A DNA stretch of 64,000 nt, taken from NCBI RefSeq assembly GCF_046119375.1, contig NW_027362768.1, forward strand, positions 56,606,001 to 56,670,000, written 5' to 3'. The stretch is from Phyllobates terribilis. Lineage: Eukaryota. Below are positions 2,351 through 48,870 of the stretch, one piece after another (position 1 is the first letter of the stretch; each line of letters starts with the position of its first letter). The position numbers and the translations under genes are program-made. The notes beneath the pieces are model-generated. The model was not told the origin of the DNA. It saw nothing but the letters and a program-made list of their open reading frames with translations, and made no database searches.

Positions 2351-2422
2351 TGTTGCGCTCGCGCCCGGACTGACTGGCGTGAGCGTGATTAGTGATCCCA
2401 CTGTACCATGAACCGAGGAGTG

Positions 2423-3868
2423 TGTTATGCACACGCCCGGGCTAAGCGGCGTGTGCGTGTGATTGGTAGTGATTCCACTGGACCGTGCCGGAGAGTGAAT
2501 GCCTGGAGGGGCGTGACTAAGTATTCACCCGATCCGACCAGGGTCGCACGACGGCATACGACGCCAGTGCACCAAGGAGGAACCGAGCAGAGGGACCAGG
2601 TGCTACTCCAGGACAGACCCCGGACACGGCTGTTGACCCACACAGGGGAATACAGGAACAGGCTGGTAGGCTGGCACACAGACTGGAGGGTATAGGCAGG
2701 CACGACTGGTATGCAGGCAGGCGGGTATGCAGGCAGGGGGGTAAAGGCAAGCACAGCTAGAGTGCAGACAGGGAGGCACTAGCAGGTAGGAACACAGGCG
2801 GGATAGGACCCAGTACACACCGGGACTCAGGAACAATACAGGCAGAGGGGTACAGGCAAGCACGGCTAGAGTGCAGACAAGGCTGAGCAGAGAGGACAGG
2901 GCTCTGTTCACACGGAACAGACAGGAAGGGAAAGGCAGAGCCAGACACCCACAGGGTACTTGCAGTGAAGTAGCGAGTGGACCACAAACTCACAAACGGG
3001 AGTACAGAGACAACAGGCAGGAGTTAGGTTCGAGTACAGACTCAGCAGAAAAAGGAAGGGAACGGACATAGAGGCAAAACAGGTAAAGGATAGGAGAGAG
3101 TTCAGACTGGAACTGAGTGTACGGAGGAGACCGACACTGCAGCGGGATACAGGAGCGGGTCTGGGAATACTGCCCCCAGAGAGGCGAGACGAACAGGCAA
3201 GGAGCGTGTTCAGACAGGACAGACAAGATACAGGAGCGGGTCTAGGTAATCGGCCCCTAGAAGGCGGGAGGAACAGGCTAGGAGCGTGTTCAGACAGGAC
3301 AGACAAAATACAGGAGCGGGTCTAGGAAATCGGCCCCAAGAAGGCGGGAGGAACAGGCTAGGAGCGTGTTCAGACAGGACAGACAAGATACACAGAAAGG
3401 ACTCAGTTCAGACACGGGAACAAATACCGCAAAGCAGGAGACATACAGGACTCAGTTCAGACACGGGAGCTGATACCGCAAAGCAGGAGACATACAGGAC
3501 TAAGTTCAGACAGGCCTGGAAATACAGCCTCCAGGAAAGGCAGACAAGGAAACAAAGAACGGGACCTGGCACCTTCAGAGTGCAAGCACACACTGAAGGA
3601 AACACTATGCTCAGGCAGGGATAGAAGGGAGCTGCTGAGCTATATACCAAGTGACAGACAGCAATAGGCTGAGGACGCACAAGGGGTGTGACCCACAGCA
3701 GGTACAAAAGGCAGGAAGTGATCGGGCGCCGCCCTTAAGCAGCAGAAACAGACACAAACAGACAGCATGGAGGGAAGCCAGAGAGACATTCTGGACAGGA
3801 GATCAAGTGCGCCCTCTTGCACAGTGGGAGATGGACCACCATGCAAGGACGCCGCCAGGTATGTTACA
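2423..3868 (-). mobile_element. Solo LTR (inner) nested in a related solo LTR
   Basis: TGTTATG...TGTTACA termini; TSD GAGTG at 2418-2422 and 3869-3873; TATA at 3641-3646; internal direct repeats. Confidence 0.88.
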
Positions 3869-4264
3869 GAGTGCCTGGAGGGGCATAACTAAGTATCAAC
3901 CCGATCCGACCTAGGTCGCATGGCGGCTTAGTCGACTCCGTGGACCAAGGAGGAACCGAGCAGAGGGACCAGGTGCGACTCCAGGTCAGACCCCGGTCAC
4001 AGTTCTTGACCCACACCGGGGAATGCAGGAACAGGTAGGTTAGACTGGCATACAGGCAGGTGGGTATTGGCAAGTACGGCTGGTATGCAGACAGGTGGGT
4101 ACTGGCAAGTATGGCTGGTATGCAGACAGGTGGATACTGGCAAGCACGGCTGGTATGCAGACAGGTGGGCACTGTCAAGCACGGCTGGAGTGCAGACAGG
4201 GAGGTACTAGCAGGTTGGAGCGCAGGCTGGATAGGGTCCAGTACAGACTGGGAGACAGGTACAG

Positions 4265-4800
4265 AGCCGCAGATGCGGTAGACAAGCAGAGTAAAGCAAA
4301 ACCGTCGGAGCGGAGGACAAGGCAGAGCAGAGAGGAACTGCTGGTGCGGTGAGCAAGCAGAGCGGAGCAAAAACCGCAGGTGTGGTGGGCAAGGCAGAGC
4401 AGAGCTGAACCGCCGGAGCGGTGGACAAGGCAGAGCAGAGAGAAACCGCAGGTGCGGTGGACAAGGCAGAGCAGAGTGGAACCGCCGGAGCGGTGGGCAA
4501 GGCAGAGCAGAGAGAAGCCACTGAAGCGGTGGGCAAGGCAGAGCAGAGAGAAGCCGCCGGAGCGGTGGGCAAGTCAGAGCAGAGAGAAACCGCTGGTGCC
4601 ATGAGCAAGGCAGAGCAGAGAGAAGCCGCCGGAGCGGTGGGCAAGTCAGAGCAGAGAGAAACCACCGGAGCGGTGGGTAAGGCAGAGCAGAGGGAAGCCG
4701 CCGGGGCGGTGGGCAAGTCAGAGCAGAGAGAAACCGCCGAAGTGGTGAGCAAGACAGAGCGGAGCGAAACCGCAGGTGCGGTGGACAAGGCAGAGAGGAC
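4265..4800. repeat. About 39-bp tandem repeat inside the outer LTR
   Basis: GCGGTGGGCAAGGCAGAGCAGAGAGAAGCCGCCGGA-like unit repeated about 13 times; it explains the repetitive ORFs here. Confidence 0.9.
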
Positions 4801-5915
4801 AGGGCTCTGTTCACATGGAATAGACTGGAAAATACAGGAAGATGGCTAGAACACAGGAGGAAGATACGGAGGAAGGGAAAAGGGACAAGCAGAACCAGAT
4901 ACACGCAAGGTACTTCCTATGAAGTAGCGAGTGGACACAAAACTCACAAACAGAAGTACAGAGACAACGAGTTGGAGTTAGGTGCAGGTTCAGATACTGC
5001 AAGAAAAGGGAAGGTATGGACATAGAGACAAACAGGTAACAGGCTAGGATACAGATCAGATAGGAACTGTTACTGCAATGAAATACAAGAACGAGCCTGG
5101 GTATACAGCCCCCAGAGTGGCGGAAACAGACTTGAAGTCACAGGTAACAGGCCTGGATATACAGCCCCCAGAGTGGCGGAAACAGACTCGAAGTCAGAGA
5201 TAACAGGTCTGGGTATGCAGCCCCCAGAGTGACGGAAACAGACTAGAAACAGGACAGAACCTGGCAATTCAGTAGCAAAGACTAACTGAGTGAAGGTGTT
5301 GCTCAGGCCCCTCCTTCTGGGTGGAGGGGGGGTTTAAATATCCAGTGACTCACAGCAATAGGCTGGAGACGCATTAGGGGTGCGCCCACAGCAGCTATAA
5401 GAATCAGGAAGTAACCGGGCCGCCGCTCTAAGCAGTCAGTCAAGAGACATGCACACAGCATGAACTGGAGCAAGGTTTGTAGTCTGGACTGACAGGTAAG
5501 ATTGCAGTCTTGCATAGTGGGAGGTGGTGCACTATGCAAGCATGCCACCAGGGATGTTACAGAGAGTTTTTGGATTTTCAAATTCTTCTTCCAGGCATAT
5601 GGGTGATTTCACCCCTTTTTTCTTCCTTCTCATTATTATTGTTTTACTTTGAATGTTATATTGTATTTTTAATATTGCATCTTATTACACATGTTTTTAA
5701 CACTCTTCAGTAATATCATTGCTGTATTCCACTGCTTATCTACTTTTCTCCCAATTCTGTGAATTCATGTGCTTGTTGTCCATGTGTTGACATGAGAGGT
5801 ACCTGCACACCAGCACATGAAGGGTCTTCAGAACCCATGATTAACCAATTAGTTTGTTAACCAATCATTGTGAAACCTTCCCTATAAATGTTTTTCTTTT
5901 ATCCATATCCTTGTA

Positions 5916-19681: not shown

Positions 19682-22600
19682 TGTGTTACGGGGCTGGGTG
19701 GTGAAACCTCTGTGCTTCGGTGCAAGGAGGGACCAAAGGAGCGTGACTAAGTGCCTACTCGGCCTCACCCAGGTCACACGGTGGCTTAGTCGACTACGTG
19801 AACCAGGGAAGGACCGGGCAGGTGAACCAGGTGCCACTCTGGGACCTACCTTGTGTGAGAGCAGGTGACTCCCACGGGTCAGATGACAGGAACTGACCGG
19901 TACAGCGGATGAGCACGGCAGGAAGGCAGACAGGTGGTCCGGGTAGATCAGCAGGCAGATACGGCAGATAGTCAGACAGGTACTCCGGGTAGGCAAGCAG
20001 GCGGGTACGGCGGATAGCCAGACAGGTGGCCCGGGTAGACAGGCTGGCGGGCACAGCAGGTAACTGGCAGGTGCTCCAGGCAGGCTGGCGGGCACGACAG
20101 GTAACTGGCAGATGCTCCAGGAAGGCAAGTTGGCGGGCACGACAGGTAACTTGCAGACTGGCGGGCAGAACTATTAGACAGACTGGCAGGCTAGATTGTT
20201 AGACGGACTGTTGGGCTGGACTGTTAGACACACTGGCGGGCAGGACTGACTGGCAGCGGGACCTGAGGGCTGAAGCAAGTGTTAGCACATGGAACAACAG
20301 CTTTGCACAGGCACCTCCATTTTGGAGGAGGTACCTTATTTAGGAGAAGTCCTCCGGCCATTGGCCGGGGACTCTTTAGGACGGCACGCCTGGCCCCTTT
20401 AAGAGGGAGGGAGCGCGCGCGCCCTAAGCACAGTGCCCGGGAAGCTGCTCGTGGTGTGCACCACAGCAGCAGGGGAGCCGGAAGACGCAGGACCAGGACC
20501 GCGGCGGTGAGGGGAACGGCGTCTCTGCCCGGCAGGAGGCAGAGACGCCGATGCTACAGTACCCCCCCTTTACGCCCCCTCTTCTTTAGGCCCGCGAGAA
20601 ATTCTTTAAGAAGATGAGGGGCATGAATGTTCTCCCTGTGTTCCCAAGACCTCTCCTCCGGGCCAAACCCCTTCCAACCACAAGAAAGAAAGTCTTTCTT
20701 CTTACCCTCTTGGTGGCCAAAATGTTTTCTACCTCAAAGACGTCCTCAGCGGAGACTGGATCTGGAGTGGTACCTGGATCATCAGAGAAGGAATTAAGGA
20801 CAACTGGTTTGAGGAGGGATACATGAAAGGAGGTGGGAATCCGTAAGGTGACCGGGAGTATCAGCTTGTAAGCCACGGGATTGATTTGGTTCAGAACCTA
20901 GAGCAGACCGATGAACCGCGGACCCAACTTATAAGAAGGTATCTTGAGATGGACATATTTGGAGGAAAGCCAGACCTTGTCTCCCGGATGGAATTGAGGC
21001 GGATTCAAACGTCTCTTATTATTATTTATTATTATAGCGCCATTTATTCCATGGCGCTTTACATATGATAGGGATATACATAGCAAAAACATTTACATAA
21101 ACTTAACAAAACGAGTCAGCGACTGGTACAGGAGGAGAGAGGACCCTGCCCGCGAGGGCTCACAGTCTACAAGGGATGGGTGAGGATACAGTAGGTGGGG
21201 GTAGAGGAGGCCATGCAGTAATGTGGTGGGGCGGTGGTTACTACAGGTTGTAGGCTTGTCGGAAGAGGTAGGTTTTCAGGTTTCTATTGAAGGCTTCCAC
21301 GGTAGGCGAGAGTCTGATGTGTTGGGGTAGAGAGTTCCAGAGTAGGGGGGATGTGCGGGAGAAATCTTGTATGCAAGTGTGGGAAGAGGAGATAAGAGGG
21401 GAGTAGAGAAGGAGATCCTATAAGGATCGGAAGTTGCGTTCAGGTAAGTACCGGTATAGTCTTATCAGCATGTCTCTTCATCTGCTCGGAAGACTGAAGA
21501 AGTGCAGATCTAGTGTCTTCCCAAATAGCCGAAAATTCGTTGAAAAGAGACTCCGCGGCAGAATTGTCCACCAAAGAGGAGACGGGAAACAGAATCCGTG
21601 GGTTTCGACCGTAGACCACAAAAAATGGGGATTTAGTAGAAGACTCGCTCTCATGGTTGTTATAGGTGAACTCGGCCCAGGGGAGGAGCTCAACCCAATC
21701 ATTATGGTGAGCGTGGACAAAGTGCCGAAGAAAGCTGGTAAGGATCTGGTTGATACGTTCTACTTGACCATTGGACTCAGGATGATAAGCAGAAGAGAAA
21801 TCCAAAGAGACATCCAGCAGCTTGCACGTAGCTCTCCAGAAGCGTGAAGTGAACTGAACTCCGCGATCAGACACAATGTGGAGGGGTAGGCCGTGAAGAC
21901 GGAAGATGTGGTGGATGAAGTCCTTAGCCAGTACAGATGCAGACGGAAGACCAGGTAGAGGGATGAAGTGGGCCATCTTAGAAAAGCGGTCAGCGACCAC
22001 CCAAATGACAGTGCAACCGGCAGAAACAGGGAAATCCGTGATGAAGTCCATTTCAATGTGTAGGCTCAGGAAGAGGAAGTAGACGGCCGGATGGAAGGTG
22101 CCTGGGAACCTTATTACGAGCACAAGAGGAACAAGCCATGACAAAGTCTGCTACATCCTTGCGCAGTGAAGGCCACCAGTAATGTCGGGTGACGAGCAGA
22201 AAGGTCTTCCTCTGGCCAGCATGACCATCTAGTTTGGATGAATGGCCCCAGAGTAGAACCTTCTTTCGATCCGGAACCGCTACAAAGGTCTTACCGGGTG
22301 GAAGATGAGACAGGTCAAACGCAGCAACAGTCATTACTTTGGAGGGGTCAATGATATGTAGAGGCTCCTTCTCTTGGTCGGAAGACAGGAATGAGCGGGA
22401 TAAAGCGTCAGCTTTAATGTTATTGTCTGGCGGTAATGCAGAGTGAAGCAGAATCGGGCAAAGAATAGAGACCACCTGGCCTGACGCGAATTTAGTCTTT
22501 GGGCATTCTGCAAATAAGCGAGGTTTTTGTGGTCAGTGTAGATGACCACCAGGTGCAGAGCCCCCTCCAGCAAGTAGCGCCACTTCTCCAGCGCTAATTT

Positions 22601-25600
22601 GATGGCCAGCAGCTCACGATCTCCTATGGAATAGTTGAACTCGGACGAGGAGAAGAGCTTGGAGAAGAAGCCGCAGGTTACCGTTCTCCCGGACGAGGAT
22701 TTTTGGGTGAGCACCGCTCCGACTCCGGAGGAGGATGCATCAACCTCCAGGAAGAACTGCTTGTTGCAATCCGGACAGTGCAGAACAGGAGCAGAGGAGA
22801 AGGCTTGTTTAAGGGAGACGAAGGCCTTCTCCGCTTCGGAATTCCATTCCCTGGGATTTGCTCCTTTACGGGTGAGCGCGGAGATGGGAGCAGTCCGGGA
22901 GGATAAATGAGGAATGAAGAGCTGGTAATAGTTTCTGAAGACCAGGAATCACTGAATCGCCTTCAACACCTCCAGTTGGGGCCACTTTAAGACGGCAGAC
23001 ACCTTCTCGGGATCCATCCGCAGACCAGTCTCAGAGATAATATAGCCCAGAAACGGCAGAGAGGTCTGCTCAGAGACATTTCTCGAATTTAGCGTATAGG
23101 CGATTCTTCCGGAGCTTTAGCAGAACCTGATGAACATCCCTCTGGTGTGAGGGCAGATCCAGAGAGAAAACCAAGATATCTTCCAGGTAGACCACTACGC
23201 AAGAATACAGGAGATCACGGAAGATGTCATTAACCAGCTCCTGGAAGACGGCTGTAGCATTACAGAGACCAAAGGGCTTCACGCGGTATTCGTAGTGACC
23301 GTCCCTGGTGTTGAATGCCATCTTCCACTCGTCTCCCTGGCAGATCCGGACCAAATTGTACACCCCACGAAGATCGAGCTTGGTGAAGATCTTCGCGCCT
23401 TTAAGACGGTCAAACAGCTCCAAGATGAGAGGCAGGGGTAATCTGGGTAAAGCCCCTGTAATCAATACAGGGACATAGAGAGCTGTCTTTCTTCTTGACG
23501 AAGAAGAATCCTGCTCCAGCTGGAGAGGTGGATTTCTGGATAAACCCCCTGGCAAGATTCTCTTCTCTCTACTCCAACATCTCAGCCAGCGACAAGGGGT
23601 AGATTTGCCCGTGGGGAGGAGAAGCACCAGATACCAGGTCAATGGGGCAATCGTACGGCCTATGAGGTGGTAGTGTCTCTGCTTTCTTTTTGTCAAAGAC
23701 GTCCGCCTAGGACCAGTAGGGTGCCGGCAGACCAGGTAGATTAGCCGGAGTAGACGGGGGTCGAGCAGGACGAACCGGAACCAGACAGGACTCATGGCCT
23801 TCCTGACCCCAACGGAGCACTTCACTAGATCTCCAATTCAGGGCAGGCTCATGTCTTTGTAACCAGGGTAGACCAAGCAAGAGAGGGTGAGAGAGACCAG
23901 ACAGCACATGAAAGGAGATCTACTCTGAGTGCAGCATTCCCACCTGAAGGGTAACAGGGTCAGTGATGAGCCAGATGGTTTCCGGAAGAAGCCTCCACCA
24001 ACGGTTTAGCCAGATGTATGGTAGGAATCTGATACCGCTCCACAACAGCCTGTTGAATGAGATTCCCAGCGGCTCCGGAATCCAGATGGGCAGTCTCGAA
24101 GAAGCGGGTCTCACCACTGGAAATAGAAACAGACAGAGTCAAGGACAGAGAGGATTTACTCTTGCCTTGAACGACCTCTCCGAGCGGTCCTAGACACTGG
24201 AGTTTCCCGGCCTCACTGGGCAGGAATGGATCAGATGCTCTATACTGCCACAGTAGAAGCAACTCCCCTCGGCTCGGCGCATCTCCAGGCGAGGCTTGAC
24301 CATCTTGGTTTGGTCAATTTGCATTGGCTCAGGCAAATATGCCCGGGGAATTGCTGGTTGCGAGGCTGGCCTTTGTAATGTAGGAGCGAGACATGGAAAT
24401 CTTCTCTCCCGGGTAGTCTCCTTAGTACGTTCCAGAAAATGGATGTCAATCCGGGTAGCTAATGACACCAGATCGTCGAGGGTAGAAGGGATGTCACGAC
24501 CGGCTAGCTCATCCTTGATCCGTCCGGAAAGACCCTCCCAAAAGGCGGACACCAGGGCCTCATTGTTCCAGGCAAGTTCATATGCGAGGGTTCGGAAATG
24601 TATGGCATACTGGCCCACAGTGAGACTCCCTTGGCGGGGACGGAGAAGTGAGCAGTAGAAGATTTTCATCCGGGCTCATTGAAGACTTTCCGGAAGGCAG
24701 AAGATTGGACACCAGGGGATCCCCTCTTTCTCACAGAGGGTTTAGCCATGCCAATGCCTCCCCGGTGAGGTGAGACATGATGAACGCCACCTTGGCCCAG
24801 TCGGAGGTGAACTGGTGAGCCAGAAGTTCAAAGTGCAGCATGCACTGATTTATGAAGCCCCCACATAAGACAGGCTCACCACCAAAATGTGGAGGCGCAG
24901 AGAGCCGGGTGCCACAGCGCCACTGGGTTGAGGTGCCGCCGGAGCGGGTGCCGCTCGGCTAGAGACGGACACTGACGGGGTGGACAGCGTGTCCAGGCGG
25001 GAGTTGGCAGTCCACAGATAGGACAGGATTGTTTCCTGTTGGGATCTCTGACGTGAGACCTCCTGGTACAGGTCAGAGAGCGAAGGAGCCTGGGGGCCAT
25101 TGGGTTCCATGGCCTGTGCAAACTGTTACGGGCCGGGTGGTGGAACCTCTGTGCTTCGGTGCAAGGAGGGACCAGAGGGGCGTGACTAAGTGCCTACTTG
25201 GCCTGACCCAGGTCACACAGCAGCTTAGTTGACTCCGTGAACCAGGGAGAGACCGGGCAGGTGAACAGGTGCCACTCTGGGACCGGCCTTGTGTGAGAGC
25301 AGGTGACTCCCAAGGGTCAGATGACAGGAACTGACCGGTAAAGCGGATGAGCACGGCAGGAAGGCAGACGGGTGGTCCGGGTAGATCAGCAGGCAGGTGC
25401 GGCAGATAGTCAGACAGGTACTCCGGGTAGGCAAGCAGGCGGGTATGGCGGATAGCGAGACAGGTGCTCCAGGTAGGCAGGCTGGCGGGCACAGCAGGTA
25501 ACTGGCAGGTGCTCCAGGTAGGCAGGCTGGCGGGCATGACAGGTAACTGGCAGGTGCTCCAGGTTGGCAGGTTGGCGGGCACGGCAGGTAACTGGCAGGT

Positions 25601-25941
25601 GCTCCAGGTAGGCTGGCTGGCGGACACGACAGGTAACTGGCATACCTGAGGGCTGAAGCAAGTGTTAGCACACGGAACAACAACCTTTCACAGGCACCTC
25701 CATTTTGGAGGAGGTGCCTTATATAGGAGAAGTCCTCCGGCAATTGGCCGGGGACTCTTTAGGATGGCACGCGTGGCCCCTTTAAGAGGGAGGGAGCGCG
25801 CCCGCCCTAAACACAGTGCCCGGGAAGCTGCGCGCAGTGCGCTCCACAGCAGCAGGGGAGCCGGAAGACGCTGGACCAGGACCGCGGCGGTGAGGGGAAC
25901 GGCATCTCTGCCCGTCAGGAGGCAGAGACGCCAATGCTACA
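19682..25941 (-). mobile_element. Full-length chromodomain Gypsy (Tf1/sushi-like), frameshifted; LTRs 19682-20558 and 25124-25941
   Basis: Two TG...CA LTRs; PPT at 20559-20572; gag with CCHC knuckle, PR (LDSGA), RT, RH, IN (SDRGVQF, GQVERINQ) and a chromodomain at about 20620-20750. Confidence 0.95.
21019..21459 (-). mobile_element. 5'-truncated L2/CR1-type LINE 3' end inserted in the Gypsy integrase
   Basis: (TAA)n tail on the minus strand; TSD TCTTA at 21014-21018 and 21460-21464; the integrase frame HADK|RRLNPP rejoins on removal. Confidence 0.8.
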
Positions 25942-31552: not shown

Positions 31553-34500
31553 ACACGTATTAAATATGCCTCCAGACGAGCCCAGGATGCGGAATCTCAC
31601 AGAAAACATCGGAAACAGGAGACACCACAACACACTGCCGCCAGACAAGCCCAGGATGCGGAATCTCACAGACAACGTCGGGAACAGAAGACACCACACC
31701 ACACTGCCTCCAGACAAGCCCAGGATGCGGAATCTCACAGACAACGTCGGGAACGAGAGACACCGCAACACACTGACGCTAGGCAGGAACACGATGCGGA
31801 ATCCCATAGACAATGTCGGGTGAATGAATCTCCAGAATTCAGGGCAAACAGAGAACAACACGATCGCCAAATTTATCAAAAACGAATGCTCTACCAACTA
31901 AGGCAAACCCAGCAGAATATTCAACAACTTGCACGTTATGTAACAGACAATGAAACTATAATTATTCAACACTACTGTGGGAATATGAATGTAGTTTGTT
32001 CTAAATGCGACTCTCTAAATTTCATTGAGGAAAAACCATCTGACAATCGGTTTACTCAATGCTGCAAAAAAGGAAAAGTTATGCTACCGATACGTCACTA
32101 CTCAGATCTGTTTGAGCAGTTGATGAAAGGAACGCATGAACACAGTAGAAATTTTATGGAAAATATCAGAAGTATCAACAGTTCTCATGCGTTTGCTTCA
32201 TTTGGTGCCAACATTGCACCGCCCCCTGGATTCGGACCGTATTGTTTTAAAATTCATGGCCAGATCTACCACCGCACTGGAGCACTTCACCCAGAAATAG
32301 GACAACCACCAAAATTTGCACAATTATACATCTTTGATCCAAATCAGGCTACAGAACAAAGGATGAACCTGAAAGAAAATGAAAAGTGTAATGCTGAACT
32401 GATGAACCTAATTGCCGTACATTTACAATCAGCCCATTTGCTGCCGCATATCGCATGCTAAAAGACGTCAAAGCTGAGTAGGAACAGAGAGCTATACAAA
32501 ATGGGACGGAAATGCCTTCTATTATCATGGCCATTAAACAAGAATGCCAACAAGATCCCCGATGTTACAACAAAGCACGTGTAAGTGAAGTCACAGTTGT
32601 TTTTCAAAACGATGATGGAGAGCTTCCTTTTCAAAGGGATATATTAGTCCATCTTAAGCCAGACCAAAACAACCCTTTCATTCCTAAAACACAGCGAATT
32701 AGCATTTTGCACAGAAACCTTGATGCTCTTCTGTATCTGCTATTCTTTCCAAGCGGTGATCAAAGGTGGCATGAAAATCTACACGAGCAAGGAACTTCAA
32801 GAAGAATTACACAACTACAGTACTACAGTTTTCTTCTGTCTGTCCGAAATTACTTCAATCCTATTTTAAACGGTGGGAAACTGACTGTTATGAACTGCTA
32901 CAAGCACTAAGAAAAGATAGGAAAACTGTCCCTACAATAGGACTAAGCTGATTCCCTATGATGCAGCGGGGGACCTGTTCGTTGTGAACAGACCAGCCTA
33001 AGTCCTCGGCTAGTCTGAGCACAGACCTATAGATATAAGGGAAGGGTCCCTACAAGAACTAAGGACTGGGATATAGATGGACACCTCCTAGCAGAAATTG
33101 TAGCAGAGCAAAGACAAACAAAGAAAAGTACTAGTGGTCCAAGGACCAAGCAAACTACTGAGTTAGGTGCAAGGCACCTGGCTAGCTTAAGAGTAAATGA
33201 AACACTGAAGTCCAGCAAGGCCAGAAGGGCGGAGCTGGATTATATAGGCAGAAAGTCATGTGACCAACAAAATAGAAAAAGAACTAACAGGAGGGTTCTA
33301 ACAGTACCCCCTCTTCTATGAGGATCCTCCGGATCCTCCAGGCCCAGGTCTATCAGGAAACCTCCTGTGAAACGCTCCGACAAGTCTAGGAGCAGAGACA
33401 TCATCCGCCTTTACCCAGGAGTTATCCTTGGGACCAAAACCTTTCCAAGCGACGAGATACTGCAACCTCCCTCTATGCCATCTAGAATTAAGAATGTGAG
33501 AAATTTCATATTCACCGTCTTCCACCACCGGAGGAACAGAGACCACCCAGATGACAGTGAAACCCTCAGAGGCAGGAAGGTCAGTAATAAAATCCATAGC
33601 AAGATGCGTCCAAGGTGCACTAGGAACCTCCAGAGGGCAAAGCAACCCCGCAGCAGGAGCATGTGAAGACTTAGATCTAGCACACACAGTACATTGACAC
33701 ACCCACTTAATGACTTCCTTCTGCCACCCAGGCCACCAAAAACTGCGACCTACAAGTCTCTTAGTCTCAGAAATTCCTGGATGACCTGCCAACCGAGACT
33801 CATGACACTCCACAAACAAATCTCTCCTAAAGTTCCAAGGCACAAACAACCTCCCATGGGGAGTGTTAGACGGGGCATCCTCCTGGGCTTTCAGAATCCC
33901 ATCTTCCAAAATGGAGTCCAATGCTGTTATCACAACACCTTCCTGTAAAATGCTCTCCTCCTCCTCGGTACCAACCATGGGAGAAAAGCTGCGAGATAAA
34001 GCATCAGCTTTTACATTCTTGGTACCCGCGATGTAAGTAACAGAAAAATTAAGCCACGAAAAAAAAAGTGCCCACCTAGCCTAACGGGCATTCAAGCGCT
34101 TGGCAGCATCAAGATAGATCAGATTCTTATGATCAGTGAAAACCTGAATGGGAAATTTAGCACCTTCCAGAGATGACGACAATGTTCAAATGCGAGTTTA
34201 ATAGCCAGCAATTCCCGATTACCAACATCGTAATTAAGTTCGGTCTCAGAAAATTTTTTTGAAAAAAAAGCACAGGGATGTACTCCATCCTTGTTTTCCT
34301 GAGACAAAACAGCACCGACCCCCACCGAAGAAGCATCAACCTCGACCAAAAAAGGCTTGGTCTCATCAGGCTGCATAAGGATGGGGGCAGAACTGAACCT
34401 CTCCTTGAGATACACAAAAGCTTCAATGGCCTCCGTAGTCCACAGAACCGTATTCGCACCTTTCCTGGTGAGATCGGTCAGCGGCTTGACAATTATAGAA

Positions 34501-37500
34501 AAATTCTTAATGAATTTTCTGTAATAATTGGCGAAACCCAAAAATCTCTGTATTGATTTCAAACCAATAGGCCTAGACCATTCCTGCACCGCCTGAACCT
34601 TCACCGGGTCCATCTCAAAGCCCTCGCTGGAGATAATGTAGCCCAAAAAACGAATTCTCTGCACAGCGAACTCACATTTCTCCAGCTTAGCAAAAAGTGA
34701 ATTGTCACTTAACAACTGCAATACCTCACGTATGCTCTGCCAATGAGACTCCAGATCCAGCGAATAAATCAAAATGTCATCCAAATACACAACCACATTC
34801 TTACCAATCAAAGGTCTCAGGATGTCATTAATAAGGTTCTGAAAAAACGCTGGTGCATTGGTAAGACCAAAAGGCATAACCAGATTCTCAAAATAACCCA
34901 CCGGAGTGTTAAAAGCAGTTTTCCATTCATCACCTTCCTTCATACGTAACAAATTGTATGCCCCCCGGAGATCAATTTTAGAGAACCACTTGGCTCCCAC
35001 TAACTGGTTGAACATGTCAGGAATTAATGGCAGTGGGTAGGAATTGCGTAGGGTAATTTTATTAATTTCACGAAAGTCCAGACATGGACGTAAACCGCCG
35101 TCTTTTTTTTTTACAAAAAAAAATCCAACAGCCACAGGAGACTTAGAAGGTCTAATGTGACCGGCGGCCAAGCTTGTCTGTATGTATTCCTCCAAGGCCT
35201 TTCTCTCAGGGATAGTCAGATTAAATAAGCGACTCTTGGGAAGAGTAGCTCCAGAGACAAACTCAATGGTGCAATCATAGTCTCTATGAGGAGGCAAAAC
35301 TTGCGACTCCTCCTCAGAAAAAACCTTCCAAAAATCCTGAATAGGTACAGGTAATTCCCCTTTTTCCACAGCAGCAATGCGACCATTACAACATTTATCA
35401 TGACACTTAGGGCTCCAAGACTTAATTTCATGGGTAGACCAGTCCAGTACAGGATTGTGCAATTTTAACCAAGGTAACCCCAAAACCACTGGAGAAGGCA
35501 AATTATTTAATACCGCCAAATCCAAATTCTCTTGGTGAATACCATTAATGGTGAGGGGAAACTCAAAAACCTTGTGAGTAATACATTTCAAAGGAGAGCC
35601 ATCAACAGCAACCACAGAAATAGGAGATGACAAAAGTTTGGATTCTAATTTAAATTTTAACAAAAATCCCTTATCAATCACATTGAGTGTAGAACCACAA
35701 TCCACAAATACCCGAAATTCAATCAACTCCTCCTGAAATGAGGTGCTCCCAGAAAGAAATACTCCCTTAGTGTTTAAACAAGCTATACGGGCGTAACTGA
35801 CCTTTTTTTTTTCTTTGTTCAAACGAAGCACACAGTTCTTAATAAAGTGGTCAGATTTACTGCAGTAAAAACATAATCCCTTAGCAAACCTGCGGTCTTT
35901 TTCCTGAGAATGGGGTGACATCGCCCCAATCTCCATCGGTTCTCCACCTTCCGAGCAGACCCTCTGAAAACTAGGAGCTGCCATAGCAGTAGATTTCTCT
36001 TCATTAATCCTAGCACGCAGTCTCCTGTCCACACGTACAGCTAATTGCATTGCCTCCTGCAAGGTTCCAGGTGTTGGGAAGGCAATCAGCAGATCCTTAA
36101 CCCTTTCACTTACACCAGCAAGAAACAGACATTTTAATGCCGAGTCATTCCATTCCACTTCGGCCGACCATCTTCTGAAGTATGTACAATAATTTTCCAC
36201 ATCACCTGATCCCTGCTTCAAATGTCTTAATTCAGTTTCAGCAGATGAGACTCGATCAGGATTGTCATACAACAACCCCATAGCAGAAAAAAAATCTTCC
36301 ACTGATCTAAAACACGGATCATTAGGTTGGAGAGAAAAGGCTCATCACTGTGGTTCTTTGTGCAAAAGTGCCATTATAAACCCAATGCGCTGTGATTCAT
36401 TCCTAGAGGTTCTGGGTCTTAAACGAAAATATAATAAACAAGCGTTTTTAAAGGAAAAAAAATCTTGCTGTTTACCATAAAAAAAATCATCTGGCAGATC
36501 TACCTTCGGTTCCACAAAATGCGCTCCAGGATAGCTACTCAAGTGTTGCTGGAGCTCGGCCACCTCCAAAGACAGTCCCTGTAGGCGTTGAGCCAACTCC
36601 TGAACCGACACCATGCTGATATCTGGATTTCTTTCCTAAGAGTGTTTTATTTTTGTTTTGGGCTGGACTTACTGTTATGAACTGCTACAAGCACTAAGGA
36701 AAGATAGGAAAACTGTCCCTACAATAGGACTAAGCTGATTCCCTACGATGCAGCGGGGGACCTGTTCCTTGTGAACAGACCCGCCTAAGTCCTCGGCTAG
36801 TCTGAACGCAGACCTATAGATATAAGGGAGGGGTCCCTACAAGAACTAAGGACTGGGATATAGATGGACACCTCTTAGCAGAAATTGTAGCAGAGCAAAG
36901 ACAAACAAACAAAAGTACTAGTGGTCCAAGGACCAAGCAAACTACTGAGTTAGGTACAAGGCACCTGGCTAGCTTAAGAGTAAATGAAACACTGAAGTCC
37001 AGCAAGGCCAGAAGGGCAGAGCTGGATTATATAGGCAGAAAGTCATGTGACCAACAAAATAGAAAAAGAACTAACAGGAGGGTTCTAACACTGACATAAC
37101 AGTACTTAGTCAACGCATACATTAAAATTGAAGCTAATCAGCTCAATTTCATACGAATGAACCAAAAACATCTTAAAATTGAAGACTACTGCATTCTTCA
37201 AGAACATTTGCAAAAACAATCCATTCAAAAAGGAATTCCAATTGGAAAAACAGTAATTCTCCCGTTGTCGTTTGAAGGTAGCCCCCGCAACATGCAACAG
37301 CGTTATCAAGTTGCTATGGCAATAGTAACAAAGTATGGAAGACCTGACATTTTTGTAACAATGACCTGTAATCCTAAATGGCCGGAAATTACCGAAAATC
37401 TACAACACTGGCAGCAAGTTGAACACAGGCCGGACTTAGTTGCACGCGTATTTCGACTAAAACTCAGCAGCCTTTTTAAAGACATTAAAAATGGGCTTTT

Positions 37501-40500
37501 TGGAACAGTCGTAGCAATGGTACATGTCATAGAGTTTCAGAAACAAGGTCTTCCACATGCGCATATACTAATTATCTTAGACGCGGATTCCAAGTTTCGC
37601 ACGGAGGAAGAAATTGACAACATAGTGTGGGCTGAAATTCCTAACCAAGAAAAGTATCCTGAATTGCATAATATTGTAATCTGTAATATGGTTCAGGGTC
37701 CATGCATGCAAAACGGAAAGTGTACAAAAGGGTTTCCAAAGCAGTTAAAACATCACACTGTTAAAGATTTGGATGGCTACCCATCCTACCGGTGACAACT
37801 CATTGATAACATTGTACACAACAAAAAAATTATAAATAACTCATGGATAGTTCCATACAACCCGTACTTATTAAAACGCTACAACTGTCACATCAACGTT
37901 GAAATCTCCGCTTCAATAAAAAGTGTACAATATCTTTTCAAGTACATCTACAAGAGGCATGACAAAGCTAACGTCTAAACACAACAGAAAACAGTCAATC
38001 ATGATGAATCATCACGTTTTGTTGACTCAAGATATGTGAGTGCTCCAGCTGCTTGGAGGATATTTGCGTTTCCAATGCATTCACAGTCCCATGCCATTAT
38101 ACGTTTAGGTATTAATTTACCAAATCAACAACAGCTTTATTTCTTTGAAAATGCTCAAGTCGAAGATGTCTCAAAAACTTTAAGCACGACGTCAACATTA
38201 ATGGAATGTTTTTTGCTGAACCAGCGTGACGAAAACGCAAGGCAGTATTTGTATCGAGAGATTCCAGAGCATTACGTTTGGAATAAAACTTGGAATCCAA
38301 GACAACGAGGACTTAGCAGAATAATTGGATGCATGTATATTGTAAGTGTCAAGGATCAAGAAAGATATTGCCTTCAGCTGTTACTACTGCATGTCAAAGG
38401 AGCTAGAAGTTACGACGATTTGAAAACAGTTAACGGAGTATTGCATGATACATTTAAAGCTGCGGCTTTGGCTTTAGGACTTCTATTGGATGATACTGTG
38501 TGGACACCTACTTTAGAAGACGCAGTTACCCTACATATGCCTAAGAAACTTCGCAAATTGTTTGCCTACATTTGTGTCTTTGGACCGCCTACAAATCTGG
38601 CTCAACTTTGGACAAATTTCAAAGAACATATAATTGAGGATTACTGCTTACGTCTTCACAACAGAAGTGGAAATTGTCAAAATTGCGAATCTTATGCCAT
38701 GCAAGATGTCCAAAATGTCCTACTACTGCATGGAAAAACGTTTTCAGACTTTAATTTGCCACAGCCTGCAAGTCAAGTTCCACAACTTCGAGTATGACGA
38801 AGCTTATGAATTATTGTTGGCAACAGAGAAGAAAAACTCCTTAAATGAACAACAATGGATTGCATATGACACTATTGTGAGCGCTGTACAAAAACAAGCA
38901 GATCCAACGCCAAAATGTTTCTTTATTGACAGTCCAGGAGGCAGCGGTAAAACATACGTCAATGAAGTTTTAATGCATCACGTTAGAGGGTTGGGAAAAG
39001 TCGTATTGCCATCGGCTACAACAGGTATTGCAGCAAACCTTTTACGAGGCGGTCGCACTATGCATACACTCTTTGGGATACCAGTTCCAGTCAATGAAAT
39101 CTCCGTTTCCAGAATCAAACAAGACACATTTGCAGGAAGACAGTTAACCCTAGAATGCATGACCATAAAAATCTACACTTTCACATACCTGGAGCCTTTT
39201 AGGCCCGTGTGCAAATAACATGGAATAACTCAAACAAAAATGACAAACAACTATATACCTGAAGAATACCTAGAGTTTCAAAATTCTAACTAAAGTAATC
39301 TTGCAGAAAATAGAAAACAATTAACAGGGCGGGCCTGCGAGGCCCCAGGTATGCGTTCTAGGGTTAAACAGTGCAAATCTTTTGATACTTGATGAGTGCA
39401 CCATGGCACCCAAATATGCTTTGAGCTTAATTGACAGAGTTCTGCGTGAAGTTCTGACTACAAATGTTGCTCAAAAAAATGAAATTCCTTTTGGAGGTAA
39501 AGTTTTTGTCATTGGCAGAGATTTTAGGCAATGCCTTCCAGTTATACCAAATGGAACAAGAACAAATATTATCGAGTCCACCTTAAAAATGTCTGACCTT
39601 TGGAAAGAGTTTAATAAACTCCAACTAATTAACAACATGTGATCTTCTGAACCAGAGTACAGCAACTGGCTTCTTAAACTTGGTAATGGTGAACTTAGCA
39701 ATGAATATAACCTTGGAGAAGACATTATTGAAATACCAGAAGACATGTTGTGCACTGACTGCATCGTAAGTGATGTTTTTGGACAACATGTTGAAATTGA
39801 TGGGAACGACCAAAGCAGTGTTCAGAGGGTCTCTTCCTATGCAATTCTCTGTCCCAAGAACGATGACGTAGCTCTGCTGAATTCCCGTGTGATGGATAGA
39901 ATGCCTGGAGACTATAAATTGTACAAAAGTGATGATTCGGTGGATATAGACAATGAAGATGAACGAGAGCATTATCCAGTTGAATTTTTAAATAGTGTTA
40001 CGCCATCGGGAATGCCATCCCACAGACTACAACTTAAAGTTGGAGCAATCGTAATGTTGCTGCGGAATCTAAATACAAGAAATGGTCTATGTAATGGAAC
40101 TCGCCTTATTGTTACTGGACTCCATTCCCACATAATTCAATCAAGAGTGATCACTGGATCAGCGAAAGGAGGCGAAGTGTTCATTCCACGCATTGATTTA
40201 TGTCCTTCTGACACCGGTCTTCCATTTAGGCTTCGGCGTCGACAGTTTCCAGTAAAACCAGCATATCCCATGACAATAAACAAGTCACAAGGTCAAACGC
40301 TACACCATGTTGGCATATATTTACCGGAGCCCATTTTTGGTCATTGACAACTCTATGTTGCATTTTCAAGAGTTAAAATGAGATCCAACGTCAAGGTGCA
40401 AGTTTTGGATACCCATTTACAAGGAAAGTTGTTCCAGATAGTCCAAAAGTATTCACAAAAAATGTAGTGTACAAAAATATTTTGGCTTGATATTGTTAAG

Positions 40501-45054: not shown

Positions 45055-48000
45055 TTACTCTCCCCAGGATGACACAGGGGTAGAAAAGTCGTTTCGGATC
45101 CATGATTTGTTCATCTTTATGAACGTGAGTCTGTCTACATTATCAGTGGAGAGCCGCGTGCGCTTATCGGTCAGCACACCACCAGCAGCGCTGAACACAC
45201 GTTCAGACAGAACGCTGGCTGCGGGGCATGACAAGATCTCCAAGGCGTAAGTGGCTAGCTCCGGCCATTTATCCAGATTGGAAGCCCAAAAAGAGCAAGG
45301 GTCCAGTGACACAGTCATGGCTTCAATGTTTACTTGGAGATACTCCTGTACCATCGTCTCTAGGCGTTGACTATGTGTCAGACTTCTTGTCTCCTGTGGC
45401 CTTGCAAAGGATGGGCTAAAAAAGTGGTGAAATGATTCCGCAAAATTGATGTTACCAGCAGATACTGTGGTTCTGTTACGGTTTGAGTGCTGAACACTTG
45501 ACGGTCCCACGGTTGGCAAGTTGGAACTGTGAGATTCACTACGTGCACCACTGGTATTTTGTGGAAAAGCACATGTAAGATTCTGCAACAGTCTCTGCTG
45601 ATACTCCTGCATGCGTGCATCCCTTTCTATGGCAGGAATAATTTCTGCAAATTTACTTTTGTACCGGGGATCTAACAGTGTGGCAACCCAGTAGTCAGGA
45701 TTATTTCTAATTCTCACAATTCGAGGGTCATGTTGCAGGTAGTGCAGCAAGAAGGCACTCATGTGTGTTGCGCATCCAGGAGCACCAAGTCCCTGTTGTG
45801 TTGGTGGCGAGGTAACAATCATGCTTCCTTCCTCTGTCCTCTCCCCCCAACCTCGCACAACAGAAATGTGATCAAGGTCTCCCTCATCTGATGAGTCTTC
45901 CATCAGTTCGTCCTCCACTTCTTCCTGGGCTCCTGCACCTTCCTCACTAGTTTGGCTGCTACCATGCGCCCTGGTAAAACCATCTCCCCCACCCTCACAT
46001 GCCTGCCGCCTTGGTGCTGCCGACCGTCTGGACCTTGCAGATGTTAGCCCTTCCGCATACAACTCCTCCTCCTCTACTTCCTCCACCTCCTCTTGTGCCA
46101 CCACCTGACTCCGAATTCTGTTTAACATGTGCTCCAGCATGTAAATCACCGGAATAGTCATGCTGATAATGGCATCGTCAGCACTAAACATCTTCGTCGC
46201 CATTTCAAAACTGTGCAGAAGGGTGCATAGGTCCCTGATCTGAGACCACTCCTCCAGCGTGATTTGCCCCACCTCTGGATCTCGTTGGCCCAGGCTATAC
46301 GTCAGAACATATTGCACCAGGGCTTGTCGGTGCTGCCACAGTCGCTGCAACATGTGCAGAGTTGAATTCCACCGGGTAGGCACATCGCATTTTAGCCGGT
46401 GAAGTGGCAGGCCCAACGACTTCTGTAGAGATGTAAGTCGCTGAGCTGCGGGATGCGAATGGCGGAAGTGAGCACACAGCGACCGTGCCCTCTGCAGAAG
46501 GCCATCTAGTCTGGGATAGTGGGCTAAAAATTGCTGGACAACCAGGTTCAACACGTGAGCCATACAAGGCACGTGTGTGACATTGCCCCGGCGAAGGGCC
46601 GCACCCAGGTTTGCAGCATTGTCGCACACGGCCTTCCCTGGTTTCAGGTCCAGTGGAGACAACCATTCATGAAATTGGTTCTCCAGAGCTGACCACAACT
46701 CCTCAGCTGTGTGACTCACATTTACCAGACATTTCAATGTAAAAACCGCCTGATGACGTTGAGCCCTACTGCCAGCATAGTAAGGAGGTGTGCAGGATCC
46801 CTTCTGCGCAGTTAGAAAGCTTGTGGCATGACCAGACAGGCTTTGGGTGCAGGTGGAAGACCGAGAGGAGGTTGAGGAGGCAGAAGCAGTGGAGGAACTT
46901 TGACATAAAGAGGATTGACGCACAACTCGTGGGGACGGCAAGACTTGGACAGCAGCCCCTTGTCCTGCTGTCACCATAGTTACCCAGTGCCCAGTTAGCG
47001 ACATGTAACGCCCCTGTCCATGCCTACTCGTCCAAGTGTCTGTGGTGAAATGCACCCTGTCACACACAGAGTTTCTCAAAGAAGCGGTGATGTTGTGTGC
47101 GACATGCTGGTGGAGCGCAGGCACACCTTTCTTTGAAAAGTAGTGCCGACTGGGCATCTGGTACTGGGGCACTGCGACGGACATAAGGTCTCGAAAATCC
47201 TCTGTGTCCACCAGGCGGAAAGGCAGCATTTCTGTAGCCAAGAGCTTGCAGATGGTGAAATTCAACCTCTTAGCTTTCTCATGGCTAGGAGGAAATGGTC
47301 TTTTACTTGTCCACATCTGAGGGACCGAGGGCTGGCTATTGTGCTTAGACGGGGTTGATAAGGGTGTCCCCGGCAAACTGCCGGTCTGTGAGGAAGATGC
47401 AGGCGGACATGTTAGGTTGCCTTGATCCAAAGGTGGTGCTATCGATGTCGGACAGCGCTCAACACCAGCTGGTGTTACCACCTCCAAAGAAAATGATGAC
47501 CTGCCAATCACGCTGGCTGTTGCGGGTAAAGAGGTGGCAGGTCTGCGCCCCAAAACAGGTGTGACTGCTGTCCCCCCAGTCACAGAGGATGAAGAGGCCG
47601 CGGATGCACAAGATATGGCAGACGGTGGTTGGCCCGGCCGGCTAGGCCGCATTGTAGCACACTGAGCTTCCCACTGCAACTTATGCTTCATGTCCATGTG
47701 CCGGTTCATGCATGAAGTACTCAAACTATGTATTTTTTGGCCTCTACTTAGCTTTTGCTGACAAATGTTACAGATAACATGAGTTGGGTCATCTTTATCG
47801 ATCTGAAAAAATGCCAAGGCTATGCAAGGCTTAGCACCCATGCGACCTGAAGAGCCACCACGACTTGTGGTGAGAGGCAGAGTTGTGTTTGAGGATGCAG
47901 TTGTTGACGTGCTTCCAGTACTACGTCTCTGTCCAGGAAGGCGCAACCTGACCTCGTTGTCACTAGCATCTTCCTCCACCTCCTCTGCTGACCTCATCTC

Positions 48001-48756
48001 TTGGCTGACTGTGGGTTGACAGTAAGTGGGATCTCCAACCTCATCATCATCACCCTGTGCGTTATCACACCCGTCGTCCTCAGAGCCAACCTGTTCCTGC
48101 CCTGACAAAAAACTAAAGTTGTCGCTCCAATCAGGTATTTGAGTCTTATCATCGTCTTCCTCATTGTCTCCACCAACAGGAGTTACAGTTTGGGAATGAG
48201 GGTCTACATTATGGTCAGAACCTTCTGCGTCTGGTCCTGGATCCGACTCATAAAGATTCTGGGCATCAGTGCAGATCATTTCCTCGTCTGGATTCACAGA
48301 AGCGCTGGAGTCGACCTCTGATTCCCAGGCTATAGTATGAGTAAACAGCTCTGCAGACTCAACCATCTGTTCTACCTCATACTCAGACGGGCAGCTGGAG
48401 ATTTGGGAGCTGTGAGGAAGCAAGTGCGATTGGGGTGACACCTTTGAGGACTGGAGTATTTGTGATGTTGAAGTTGATGTGGAGGAGAGCCCACTTAAAG
48501 GAGCACTTGATATCCGTTGAAGCACCTGCTGTTTTTGTGCCTCATCTGGAATTTGAAGCGATTGGCGTGGCCGTAAGAAAGGGATCTTATCACATTGTCC
48601 GCTAAAAGAAGTAGACATTTTAGTTTGGCTGGAAGATGGTCTTTCTTCTGCAGATGTTACTGTTGCTTTAACACCTACCCCACGGACACAACCTTTTTTC
48701 CCCTTCCCAACACGCCTATTCCCCTTTCCACCAGCAGCAGGCCTTTTTCCACTCAT
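45055..48756 (-). CDS. hAT transposase with BED zinc finger (ZBED-like), 1233 aa, intact ORF
   Basis: BED finger (CNICQQKLS...NRHMDMKH); catalytic TTDTWTS, CDNAAN and SERVFS; CMAH (CxxH); TRWNST; C-terminal dimerization region; basic NLS-like N-terminus. Confidence 0.93.
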   Translation of the reverse strand: MSGKRPAAGGKGNRRVGKGKKGCVRGVGVKATVTSAEERPSSSQTKMSTSFSGQCDKIPFLRPRQSLQIPDEAQKQQVLQRISSAPLSGLSSTSTSTSQILQSSKVSPQSHLLPHSSQISSCPSEYEVEQMVESAELFTHTIAWESEVDSSASVNPDEEMICTDAQNLYESDPGPDAEGSDHNVDPHSQTVTPVGGDNEEDDDKTQIPDWSDNFSFLSGQEQVGSEDDGCDNAQGDDDEVGDPTYCQPTVSQEMRSAEEVEEDASDNEVRLRLPGQRRSTGSTSTTASSNTTLPLTTSRGGSSGRMGAKPCIALAFFQIDKDDPTHVICNICQQKLSRGQKIHSLSTSCMNRHMDMKHKLQWEAQCATMRPSRPGQPPSAISCASAASSSSVTGGTAVTPVLGRRPATSLPATASVIGRSSFSLEVVTPAGVERCPTSIAPPLDQGNLTCPPASSSQTGSLPGTPLSTPSKHNSQPSVPQMWTSKRPFPPSHEKAKRLNFTICKLLATEMLPFRLVDTEDFRDLMSVAVPQYQMPSRHYFSKKGVPALHQHVAHNITASLRNSVCDRVHFTTDTWTSRHGQGRYMSLTGHWVTMVTAGQGAAVQVLPSPRVVRQSSLCQSSSTASASSTSSRSSTCTQSLSGHATSFLTAQKGSCTPPYYAGSRAQRHQAVFTLKCLVNVSHTAEELWSALENQFHEWLSPLDLKPGKAVCDNAANLGAALRRGNVTHVPCMAHVLNLVVQQFLAHYPRLDGLLQRARSLCAHFRHSHPAAQRLTSLQKSLGLPLHRLKCDVPTRWNSTLHMLQRLWQHRQALVQYVLTYSLGQRDPEVGQITLEEWSQIRDLCTLLHSFEMATKMFSADDAIISMTIPVIYMLEHMLNRIRSQVVAQEEVEEVEEEELYAEGLTSARSRRSAAPRRQACEGGGDGFTRAHGSSQTSEEGAGAQEEVEDELMEDSSDEGDLDHISVVRGWGERTEEGSMIVTSPPTQQGLGAPGCATHMSAFLLHYLQHDPRIVRIRNNPDYWVATLLDPRYKSKFAEIIPAIERDARMQEYQQRLLQNLTCAFPQNTSGARSESHSSNLPTVGPSSVQHSNRNRTTVSAGNINFAESFHHFFSPSFARPQETRSLTHSQRLETMVQEYLQVNIEAMTVSLDPCSFWASNLDKWPELATYALEILSCPAASVLSERVFSAAGGVLTDKRTRLSTDNVDRLTFIKMNKSWIRNDFSTPVSSWGE

Positions 48757-48870
48757 TTTGGTGGTTAACTAATTCACAACTCTGGAGTTGTTTGCACAAA
48801 AAAACAATGGATGGGAACCGAGCAGAGCTGAGTGGCCAAACTGTGGTATTAGGCCAAAACTATTGGCTGG

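What the first reader, a model, noticed from the sequence alone, without database searches (positions are those of the whole stretch)
25686..25725. Inverted repeat between TATA box and predicted transcription start, retained in four different LTRs
Seen: each minus-strand chromovirus-type LTR has a stem between the TATA box and the motif about 30 nt downstream, and the stem sequences differ. Gypsy1 has AGGCACCTCC/GGAGGTGCCT (10 bp; one mismatch in its other LTR near 20309-20336). Gypsy2 has TCCAGC/GCTGGA (36998-37003 / 37021-37026). The inner solo LTR has GCTCAG/CTGAGC (3609-3614 / 3635-3640). The outer solo LTR has CCCCTCC/GGAGGGG (5308-5314 / 5323-5329). One arm abuts TATA; the other overlaps (by 1 to 6 nt) the predicted self-primer. 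Inference: structure is conserved while sequence is not, which suggests function. It could fix the exact start that self-priming needs, or form a U3-R hairpin in the 3' LTR RNA that masks the second primer copy. I do not know of a description of this motif.
Basis: partly seen in the sequence, partly recalled or inferred. Interest (0 to 1): 0.7.

Follow-up and report, generated by a model that had tools for sequence, protein, structure and literature searches.

The report
TATA-adjacent hairpin in self-priming retrotransposons
Two related lineages of jumping genes in this animal genome carry a short inverted repeat right behind their promoter's TATA box, kept through matched mutations in some subfamilies but weak or missing in eight other lineages, and it likely folds only at the far end of their RNA, where it would help end the transcript rather than set its start.

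Summary
The four stems are in the sequence. Gypsy1's is far beyond chance (10 bp, 0 of 2000 shuffles); the other three are modest (P 0.04-0.2). They are not four independent cases: both solo LTRs are RT-less relatives of Gypsy1, and the outer one shares Gypsy1's stem core. All are Tf1/sushi-type chromoviruses whose PBS complements a site about 30 nt after TATA. Within the Gypsy1 clade the hairpin survives through several sequence solutions, including two double changes in a shifted register, so it is probably selected. Eight other self-priming lineages of this genome show only a faint tendency and five metagenome elements none, yet keep the same TATA spacing, so start-fixing is unlikely. Primer masking is predicted for Gypsy1 and Gypsy2 (6-10 kcal/mol) but not for the outer-solo family. 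Stem-bearing LTRs lack a downstream poly(A) hexamer, whereas six of eight stem-poor lineages have one. Best guess (0.35): a 3'-LTR RNA hairpin that lets the TATA element double as poly(A) signal. No RNA-end data were obtained. This scan noted U3/R primer-masking hairpins before in other genomes (unchecked notes).

The parts
25124..25941 (-). Gypsy1 5' LTR
   Evidence: TG...CA ends, 85% identical to 19684-20558, 5-bp target duplication
25719..25725 (-). Gypsy1 TATA element (-30..-24)
   Evidence: sequence; function inferred
25710..25719 (-). Gypsy1 hairpin 5' arm (-24..-15, U3)
25692..25701 (-). Gypsy1 hairpin 3' arm (-6..+4), covers 4 primer nucleotides
25686..25695 (-). Gypsy1 predicted self-primer (+1 = 25695); one private change against the PBS in this copy
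   Evidence: complement of the PBS in relatives; start site inferred
25112..25123 (-). Gypsy1 primer-binding site
   Evidence: directly after the 5' LTR; 7680 junctions of this type in the genome
20559..25111 (-). Gypsy1 internal region: gag, RT, RNase H, integrase in broken frames, polypurine tract at 20559-20584
   Evidence: Pfam, tblastn
19684..20558 (-). Gypsy1 3' LTR; hairpin at 20309-20336 with one G-U pair, +1 = 20312
36673..37090 (-). Gypsy2 5' LTR; TATA 37027-37033, arms 37021-37026 and 36998-37003 plus an inner 3-bp helix, +1 = 37003
36662..36672 (-). Gypsy2 primer-binding site, 9-nt complement of +1..+9
33304..36661 (-). Gypsy2 internal region: gag, protease, RT, RNase H, part of integrase, chromodomain
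   Evidence: Pfam
32886..33303 (-). Gypsy2 3' LTR; hairpin at 33211-33239
   Evidence: 97% identical to the 5' LTR, 5-bp target duplication
2423..3868 (-). Inner solo LTR; arms 3635-3640 and 3609-3614, +1 = 3616
   Evidence: 5-bp target duplication; family PBS in relatives
2351..5561 (-). Outer solo LTR, split by the inner solo; arms 5323-5329 and 5308-5314, +1 = 5308
   Evidence: 5-bp target duplication; family PBS in relatives

Best explanation
The inverted repeat lies between the TATA element and the predicted start in the Gypsy1 clade and Gypsy2, and it likely acts as an RNA hairpin in the 3' LTR copy only, where it would let the TATA element double as poly(A) signal by shortening the distance to a cut site beyond the self-primer. 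Shown: the stems, their covariation, the PBS-primer complement, the lack of another A-rich signal in these LTRs. Inferred: start at +1 (so the 5' arm is transcribed only at the RNA's 3' end); folding in vivo; use of the TATA element for 3'-end formation; a cut near +15 to +25, which would keep R longer than the 10-11 nt that self-priming removes from the 5' end and so leave sequence for minus-strand transfer. In Gypsy1 and Gypsy2 the same hairpin would also partly cover the 3' primer copy.
For: The 5' arm begins at -24/-23, at the TATA edge, in Gypsy1a-d, Gypsy2, the inner family and the re-made outer variant. 12 of 13 stem-lineage LTRs have none of 13 poly(A) hexamers in R+U5 of 331-1976 nt and 13 of 13 have no A-rich hexamer at -200..-32. 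8 of 10 LTRs of the other lineages have an AATA-type hexamer 83-93 nt before the LTR end, 6 of these 8 with a GU run 17-22 nt later, and none of them folds below z -1.8. Subtracting the helix span, TATA lies 15-26 nt from a GU run at +20..+24 in 8 of 13 stem-lineage LTRs. It covers the outer family, whose 7-9 bp compensated stem stops at -1 and masks nothing. Precedent: U3 poly(A) signals with short R in RSV and MMTV and structural bridging in HTLV-1 (PMC3694450 passages); TATA proposed as dual signal in HML and Retrofit LTRs (PMC3601003 passages); structure enabling distal cuts (PMC11535156 passage citing Wu and Bartel 2017).
Against: No RNA 3' end was observed. The TATA element matches a listed hexamer in only 4 of 11 stem-lineage rows, not in Gypsy1a, Gypsy1c, Gypsy2 or the inner family. 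The lack of hexamers is what the A-poor composition predicts (expected 0.01-0.41 in 12 of 13 rows). F5 and F10 have neither hexamer nor strong stem. The GU run near +23 is missing in 5 of 13 rows, including both Gypsy2 rows, and often folds as one arm of a separate R hairpin. The stem/no-signal contrast rests on one or two phylogenetic splits. A Gypsy2 sister subfamily and one inner-family variant break the stem without compensation. Read-through past the 3' LTR would also give a usable RNA and needs no signal (own knowledge).
Confidence: 0.35

Rival explanations
1. Primer masking: the hairpin hides the GC-rich 5' end of the 3' primer copy so that only the RNA's true 5' end pairs with the PBS and is cut.
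For: Predicted penalty for PBS binding by the 3' form is 7.8-10.3 kcal/mol in 4 of 4 Gypsy1 subfamilies and 8.5 and 5.7 in Gypsy2a and b (P <= 0.04 against U3 shuffles; similar). An A-U to G-C change at -24:+4 follows a primer change in 6 of 72 copies. In Gypsy2 and the inner family the 5' arm is a partial PBS copy (P 0.014 and 0.036).
Against: No penalty above null in 6 of 6 outer variants, the inner family (P 0.30), 9 of 9 rows of other lineages and 3 of 3 metagenome rows; mean z -0.02 over 8 other lineages. 30 of 72 Gypsy1 copies carry an A-C mismatch at -24:+4. It does not explain why the arm starts at the TATA edge.
Confidence: 0.25
2. No structural function: the repeat arose by template switching near the R/U3 jump point of reverse transcription, and persists because the core promoter sequence is conserved and quasi-palindromes tend to be re-perfected.
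For: In Gypsy1a-c the loop is as conserved as the arms (1 of 8 columns with shared variants, against 2 of 10 and 0 of 6). Three of the four window stems are individually near chance. Most lineages do without it, and broken variants occur in several copies.
Against: Distinct solutions inside one clade: two double changes in a register shifted against Gypsy1 (7 and 9 bp in 2 of 3 copies), a changed loop-proximal helix in Gypsy1d, another in L366. Focal window ranks lowest of 22 other LTR windows in Gypsy1 and Gypsy2.
Confidence: 0.27
3. A DNA hairpin or cruciform between TATA and start fixes the exact first nucleotide that self-priming needs.
For: Position between TATA and +1; predicted DNA fold -6.6 to -11.7 kcal/mol.
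Against: 18 of 18 subfamily representatives, with or without stem, have T at -1, GC at +1/+2 and an AT run ending at about -23 to -25 (partly built into the detection, but F4, F4b, F5 and F11 were found without a TATA filter). Tf1 and Tj1 transpose when driven from the nmt1 promoter (PMC4600332 passages). The -24..-15 DNA stays duplex in the Pol II initiation complex (own knowledge).
Confidence: 0.05

Closest known systems
Tf1/sushi self-priming chromoviruses and their 5' 'pretzel' (Tf1, Tf2, Tj1, Tosmo1-3; bioRxiv 10.1101/2022.12.06.519325 passages; PMC6317226 passages)
   Same: Gypsy domain order, chromodomain in Gypsy2, PBS complementary to 9-11 nt about 30 nt after TATA, and predicted pairing of R with the U5 end.
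   Different: The described duplexes lie downstream of the start. This hairpin is mostly upstream, in U3, and can form only in the 3' LTR RNA; the passages read do not mention it.
U3-located poly(A) signals of RSV, MMTV and HTLV-1; HTLV-1 Rex-response-element bridging (PMC3694450 passages)
   Same: Proposed logic: signal upstream of the start, active only at the 3' LTR, structure shortening the distance to the cut.
   Different: There a canonical signal is shown by experiment and the HTLV-1 structure lies in a 228-nt R; here the signal would be the TATA element, the stem is about 25 nt, and nothing is tested.
Dual TATA/poly(A) motif proposed for HML retroviruses and Retrofit (PMC3601003 passages)
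   Same: LTRs without a separate AATAAA, TATA as the only A/T-rich element.
   Different: No hairpin behind TATA is mentioned in the passages; that paper's Sushi model has AATAAA near the LTR end, like the stem-poor lineages here and unlike Gypsy1 and Gypsy2.

Membership tests
Tf1/sushi chromoviruses | Ty3/gypsy order gag-PR-RT-RH-IN between TG...CA LTRs with target duplication | tested here: met
Tf1/sushi chromoviruses | Chromodomain at the integrase end | tested here: inconclusive
   Pfam Chromo in Gypsy2; the corresponding part of Gypsy1 was not among the frames scanned
Tf1/sushi chromoviruses | PBS complementary to the element's own predicted 5' end, not starting with TGG | tested here: met
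   primer and PBS letters change together between subfamilies; no tRNA library was compared
Tf1/sushi chromoviruses | Flanking duplexes of the pretzel | tested here: inconclusive
   R pairs with the U5 end in most of 20 cofolds; the third duplex is not consistently predicted
Tf1/sushi chromoviruses | RT clustering with named Tf1/sushi references; start at +1 and primer cleavage | not testable with these tools
   no named reference sequences on hand; tree holds only own-genome and metagenome rows; no raw reads
U3 poly(A) signal with structural bridging (HTLV-1 type) | No poly(A) signal downstream of the start | tested here: met
   12 of 13 rows
U3 poly(A) signal with structural bridging (HTLV-1 type) | Recognised hexamer in U3 | tested here: not met
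   listed hexamer in 4 of 11 rows, none canonical; so 'works like', not 'is'
U3 poly(A) signal with structural bridging (HTLV-1 type) | Mapped cut site that depends on the structure | not testable with these tools
   contigs only
Rfam RNA families | Match of the Gypsy1 LTR to a covariance model | tested here: not met
   0 matches at E <= 1

The most novel reading that the evidence does not exclude
One branch of vertebrate self-priming chromoviruses has dropped its downstream poly(A) signal and uses a single 30-nt cassette three ways: TATA as promoter in the 5' LTR, the same TATA as poly(A) signal in the 3' LTR through a bridging hairpin that keeps R longer than the primer, and the hairpin as a lid on the 3' primer copy.
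Probability: 0.25. Interest if true: 0.65.

Novelty: new variant of a known kind. Interest (0 to 1): 0.4.

Why it matters
Self-priming elements cut off their first 10-11 nucleotides, so they need an R longer than that and must keep the 3' copy of the primer from being used. How vertebrate Tf1/sushi elements end their RNA is not covered in the passages I read. A defined hairpin, natural variants with and without it, and thousands of copies make both questions testable by RNA-end mapping alone. The element class itself is known and the motif is lineage-restricted, which limits the reach.

Tried and rejected
Sequencing runs: no RNA holder listed; four contig sets laid on the Gypsy1 LTR and on part of the Gypsy2 LTR showed no poly(A) junction among the loose ends displayed and cannot show starts or ends (300 loose-end rows not shown). 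Search for poly(A)-tailed retrocopies ending within 30 nt of the Gypsy1 stem: one place, whose matched letters do not continue as a Gypsy1 primer; uninformative. Viral contigs: no relative. DNA search with the inner-solo core found nothing, not even itself; a pattern search then found 11,808 places. Retrotrans_gag search returned plant-like elements on small contigs, not used. Idea that a PBS look-alike follows TATA in all lineages: P < 0.05 in 2 of 23 rows; rejected as general. Metagenome loci: 40 of 80 had enough upstream DNA to scan, 5 were kept as self-primer candidates by eye; mean fold z +0.58. A wider sample of outer-family variants was not obtained, so their covariation rests on 13 copies. 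Two rows of the RT tree (L259, L272) are neighbouring elements, not the labelled ones. F10 was left out. Levin 1995, Lin and Levin 1997 and 1998, Atwood-Moore 2006 were not held; Butler 2001 was not looked up or read.

Full report
Observation. The four inverted repeats are present. Each LTR is on the minus strand with TG...CA ends and a 5-bp target duplication. The inner solo (2423-3868) sits inside the U5 end of the outer solo (2351-5561). Gypsy1 and Gypsy2 carry RT, RNase H and integrase domains, Gypsy2 also a chromodomain. Numbering below sets +1 at the first nucleotide complementary to the PBS; it lies 30 nt after the first T of TATA in Gypsy1, Gypsy2 and the inner solo. That +1 is the transcription start is inferred from Tf1/sushi biology (bioRxiv 10.1101/2022.12.06.519325, passages), not shown.

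Chance. In the window -31..+12, shuffles reach the observed stem length in 0 of 2000 cases for Gypsy1, and with P 0.044, 0.096 and 0.21 for the outer solo, Gypsy2 and the inner solo; with the placement required, 0.007, 0.020 and 0.041. Fold z-scores are -6.4, -6.1 (3' LTR), -3.2, -2.3 and -2.2. A 6-bp stem occurs in 15% of 1476 GC-matched background windows. So one stem is clearly non-random, one probably, two are marginal alone.

Independence. The solos' families have paired-LTR copies with the predicted PBS, a gag fragment 45-54% identical to a Gypsy1-type gag and no RT of their own in the stretches fetched. They share Gypsy1's PBS ending; 7680 junctions of the Gypsy1/outer type are in the genome. 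The outer family pairs -19..-15 with -6..-2, the same five-pair core and register as Gypsy1. The window copy's 7-bp stem is private: 1 of 13 copies reaches +1. In the RT tree Gypsy1 and Gypsy2 are sisters with 93/95 support, below the tool's star threshold, and the other host lineages form a second clade. The four cases are therefore two lineages.

Covariation. In 72 Gypsy1a-c LTR copies eight inner pairs are kept as the main Watson-Crick pair in 68-72 copies and a ninth in 64; the outer pair -24:+4 is A-U in 33, A-C in 30 and G-C in 6. Columns with shared variants: 7 of 14 upstream of TATA, 19 of 20 in +11..+30, 2 of 10 and 0 of 6 in the arms, but also only 1 of 8 in the loop. About 30 of these copies were picked by similarity to Gypsy1, which inflates conservation. 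Gypsy1d rebuilds the loop-proximal helix (2 copies). One outer subfamily has changed two positions in each arm and pairs -23..-17 with -7..-1, 7 and 9 perfect pairs in 2 of 3 copies, the third decayed. Against this, a Gypsy2 sister subfamily breaks one or two pairs without compensation (4 of 23 copies) and one inner variant loses the stem.

Other lineages. Family, pattern and random fetches gave 8 further self-priming lineages. None has a Watson-Crick stem above 5 bp in this window. Their mean fold z is -0.69 against +0.23 for other windows of the same LTRs (P 0.004): a faint tendency, and the window at -151 is as low. Five candidate self-priming elements from metagenome contigs average +0.58. 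The motif is not general.

Start-fixing. All 18 representatives have T at -1, GC at +1/+2 and a TATA-like run ending near -24, stem or no stem. The detection required an AT-rich element at -36..-20, but F4, F4b, F5 and F11 were found without it. Tj1 with its primer fused to the nmt1 promoter, and nmt1-driven Tf1, transpose (PMC4600332, passages). This rival is unlikely.

Masking. Earlier scan notes on other genomes (unchecked) read similar hairpins as primer masks and prompted a direct test. Attaching U3 weakens predicted binding of R to the PBS by 7.8-10.3 kcal/mol in Gypsy1a-d and 8.5 and 5.7 in Gypsy2a and b, all above U3 shuffles; it does not in 6 of 6 outer variants, the inner family, 9 of 9 rows of other lineages or 3 of 3 metagenome rows (one search agrees, with 1 of 5 metagenome rows at P 0.03). 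Masking fits the two autonomous lineages but not the best-compensated stem.

3'-end formation. R+U5 holds none of 13 poly(A) hexamers (list recalled) in 12 of 13 stem-lineage LTRs, and U3 at -200..-32 holds no A-rich hexamer in 13 of 13. In contrast 8 of 10 LTRs of the other lineages have an AATA-type hexamer 83-93 nt before the LTR end, 6 of them with a GU run 17-22 nt later, as in the Sushi LTR model (PMC3601003, passages). With the helix span subtracted, TATA lies 15-26 nt from a GU run near +23 in 8 of 13 stem-lineage LTRs. A signal at -30 would normally cut about 20 nt downstream (PMC11535156, passage), before or inside the primer, leaving no R for strand transfer; a hairpin starting at the TATA edge would move the cut past it. 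Known parallels are in PMC3694450 (passages). Weak points: the TATA element is a listed hexamer in 4 of 11 rows only; hexamer absence follows from A-poor composition; F5 and F10 have neither feature; the GU run is missing in Gypsy2 and is also an arm of an R hairpin; read-through could replace a signal; no RNA end was seen.

Literature. Nine searches and passages of eight papers (PMC3601003, 10.1101/2022.12.06.519325, PMC6317226, PMC5341516, PMC4600332, PMC3694450, PMC11535156, PMC12789967) showed no description of a U3 stem behind TATA in Tf1/sushi LTRs. I read no paper whole and no supplement; the LTR alignments in the bioRxiv paper's Figure S10 and the primary Levin and Butler papers, which I did not see, may bear on novelty. 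Rfam gave no match.

Verdict. A real, lineage-restricted U3/R hairpin with some compensatory change in known self-priming chromoviruses. About 0.6-0.65 that it is a selected RNA structure of the 3' LTR (bridging 0.35, masking 0.25), 0.27 neutral, 0.05 start-fixing. New variant of a known kind; interest 0.4.

Noticed in passing
window 25738-25752 (Gypsy1 U3, about -60 to -43): A second palindrome around a CCAAT-like core upstream of TATA; the window starting at -71 folds at z -3.6 to -5.2 in Gypsy1a, c and d.
   Followed up: no
L261, L361, L366, L369, L373 (R, about +18 to +40): A small R hairpin in inner and outer families whose arms have both changed in L366 and L369.
   Followed up: partly
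L259-L264, L277: Inner and outer families are gag-only, RT-less elements with R+U5 of 1-2 kb; the inner primer motif occurs at 11,808 places, and two fetched copies have LTRs over 99.6% identical.
   Followed up: partly
L061-L090 (contigs C2755-C8306 of G000): All 150 best Retrotrans_gag hits lie on small contigs; those read look like plant Athila-type elements with a TGG-starting PBS (label recalled), suggesting plant DNA in the assembly.
   Followed up: no
window 37100-40347: Helitron Rep/helicase fragments start right beside the Gypsy2 5' LTR, lacking the first part of the domain, so Gypsy2 probably inserted into a Helitron.
   Followed up: no
window 45055-48768: Open 1237-codon hAT transposase frame with BED finger and dimerisation domain.
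   Followed up: no
L263: Tandem outer-family element with two PBS junctions 3.4 kb apart, apparently sharing a middle LTR.
   Followed up: no
L284, L287, L330, L356: Metagenome chromovirus-like elements also show a TATA-like run about 30 nt before their PBS complement.
   Followed up: partly
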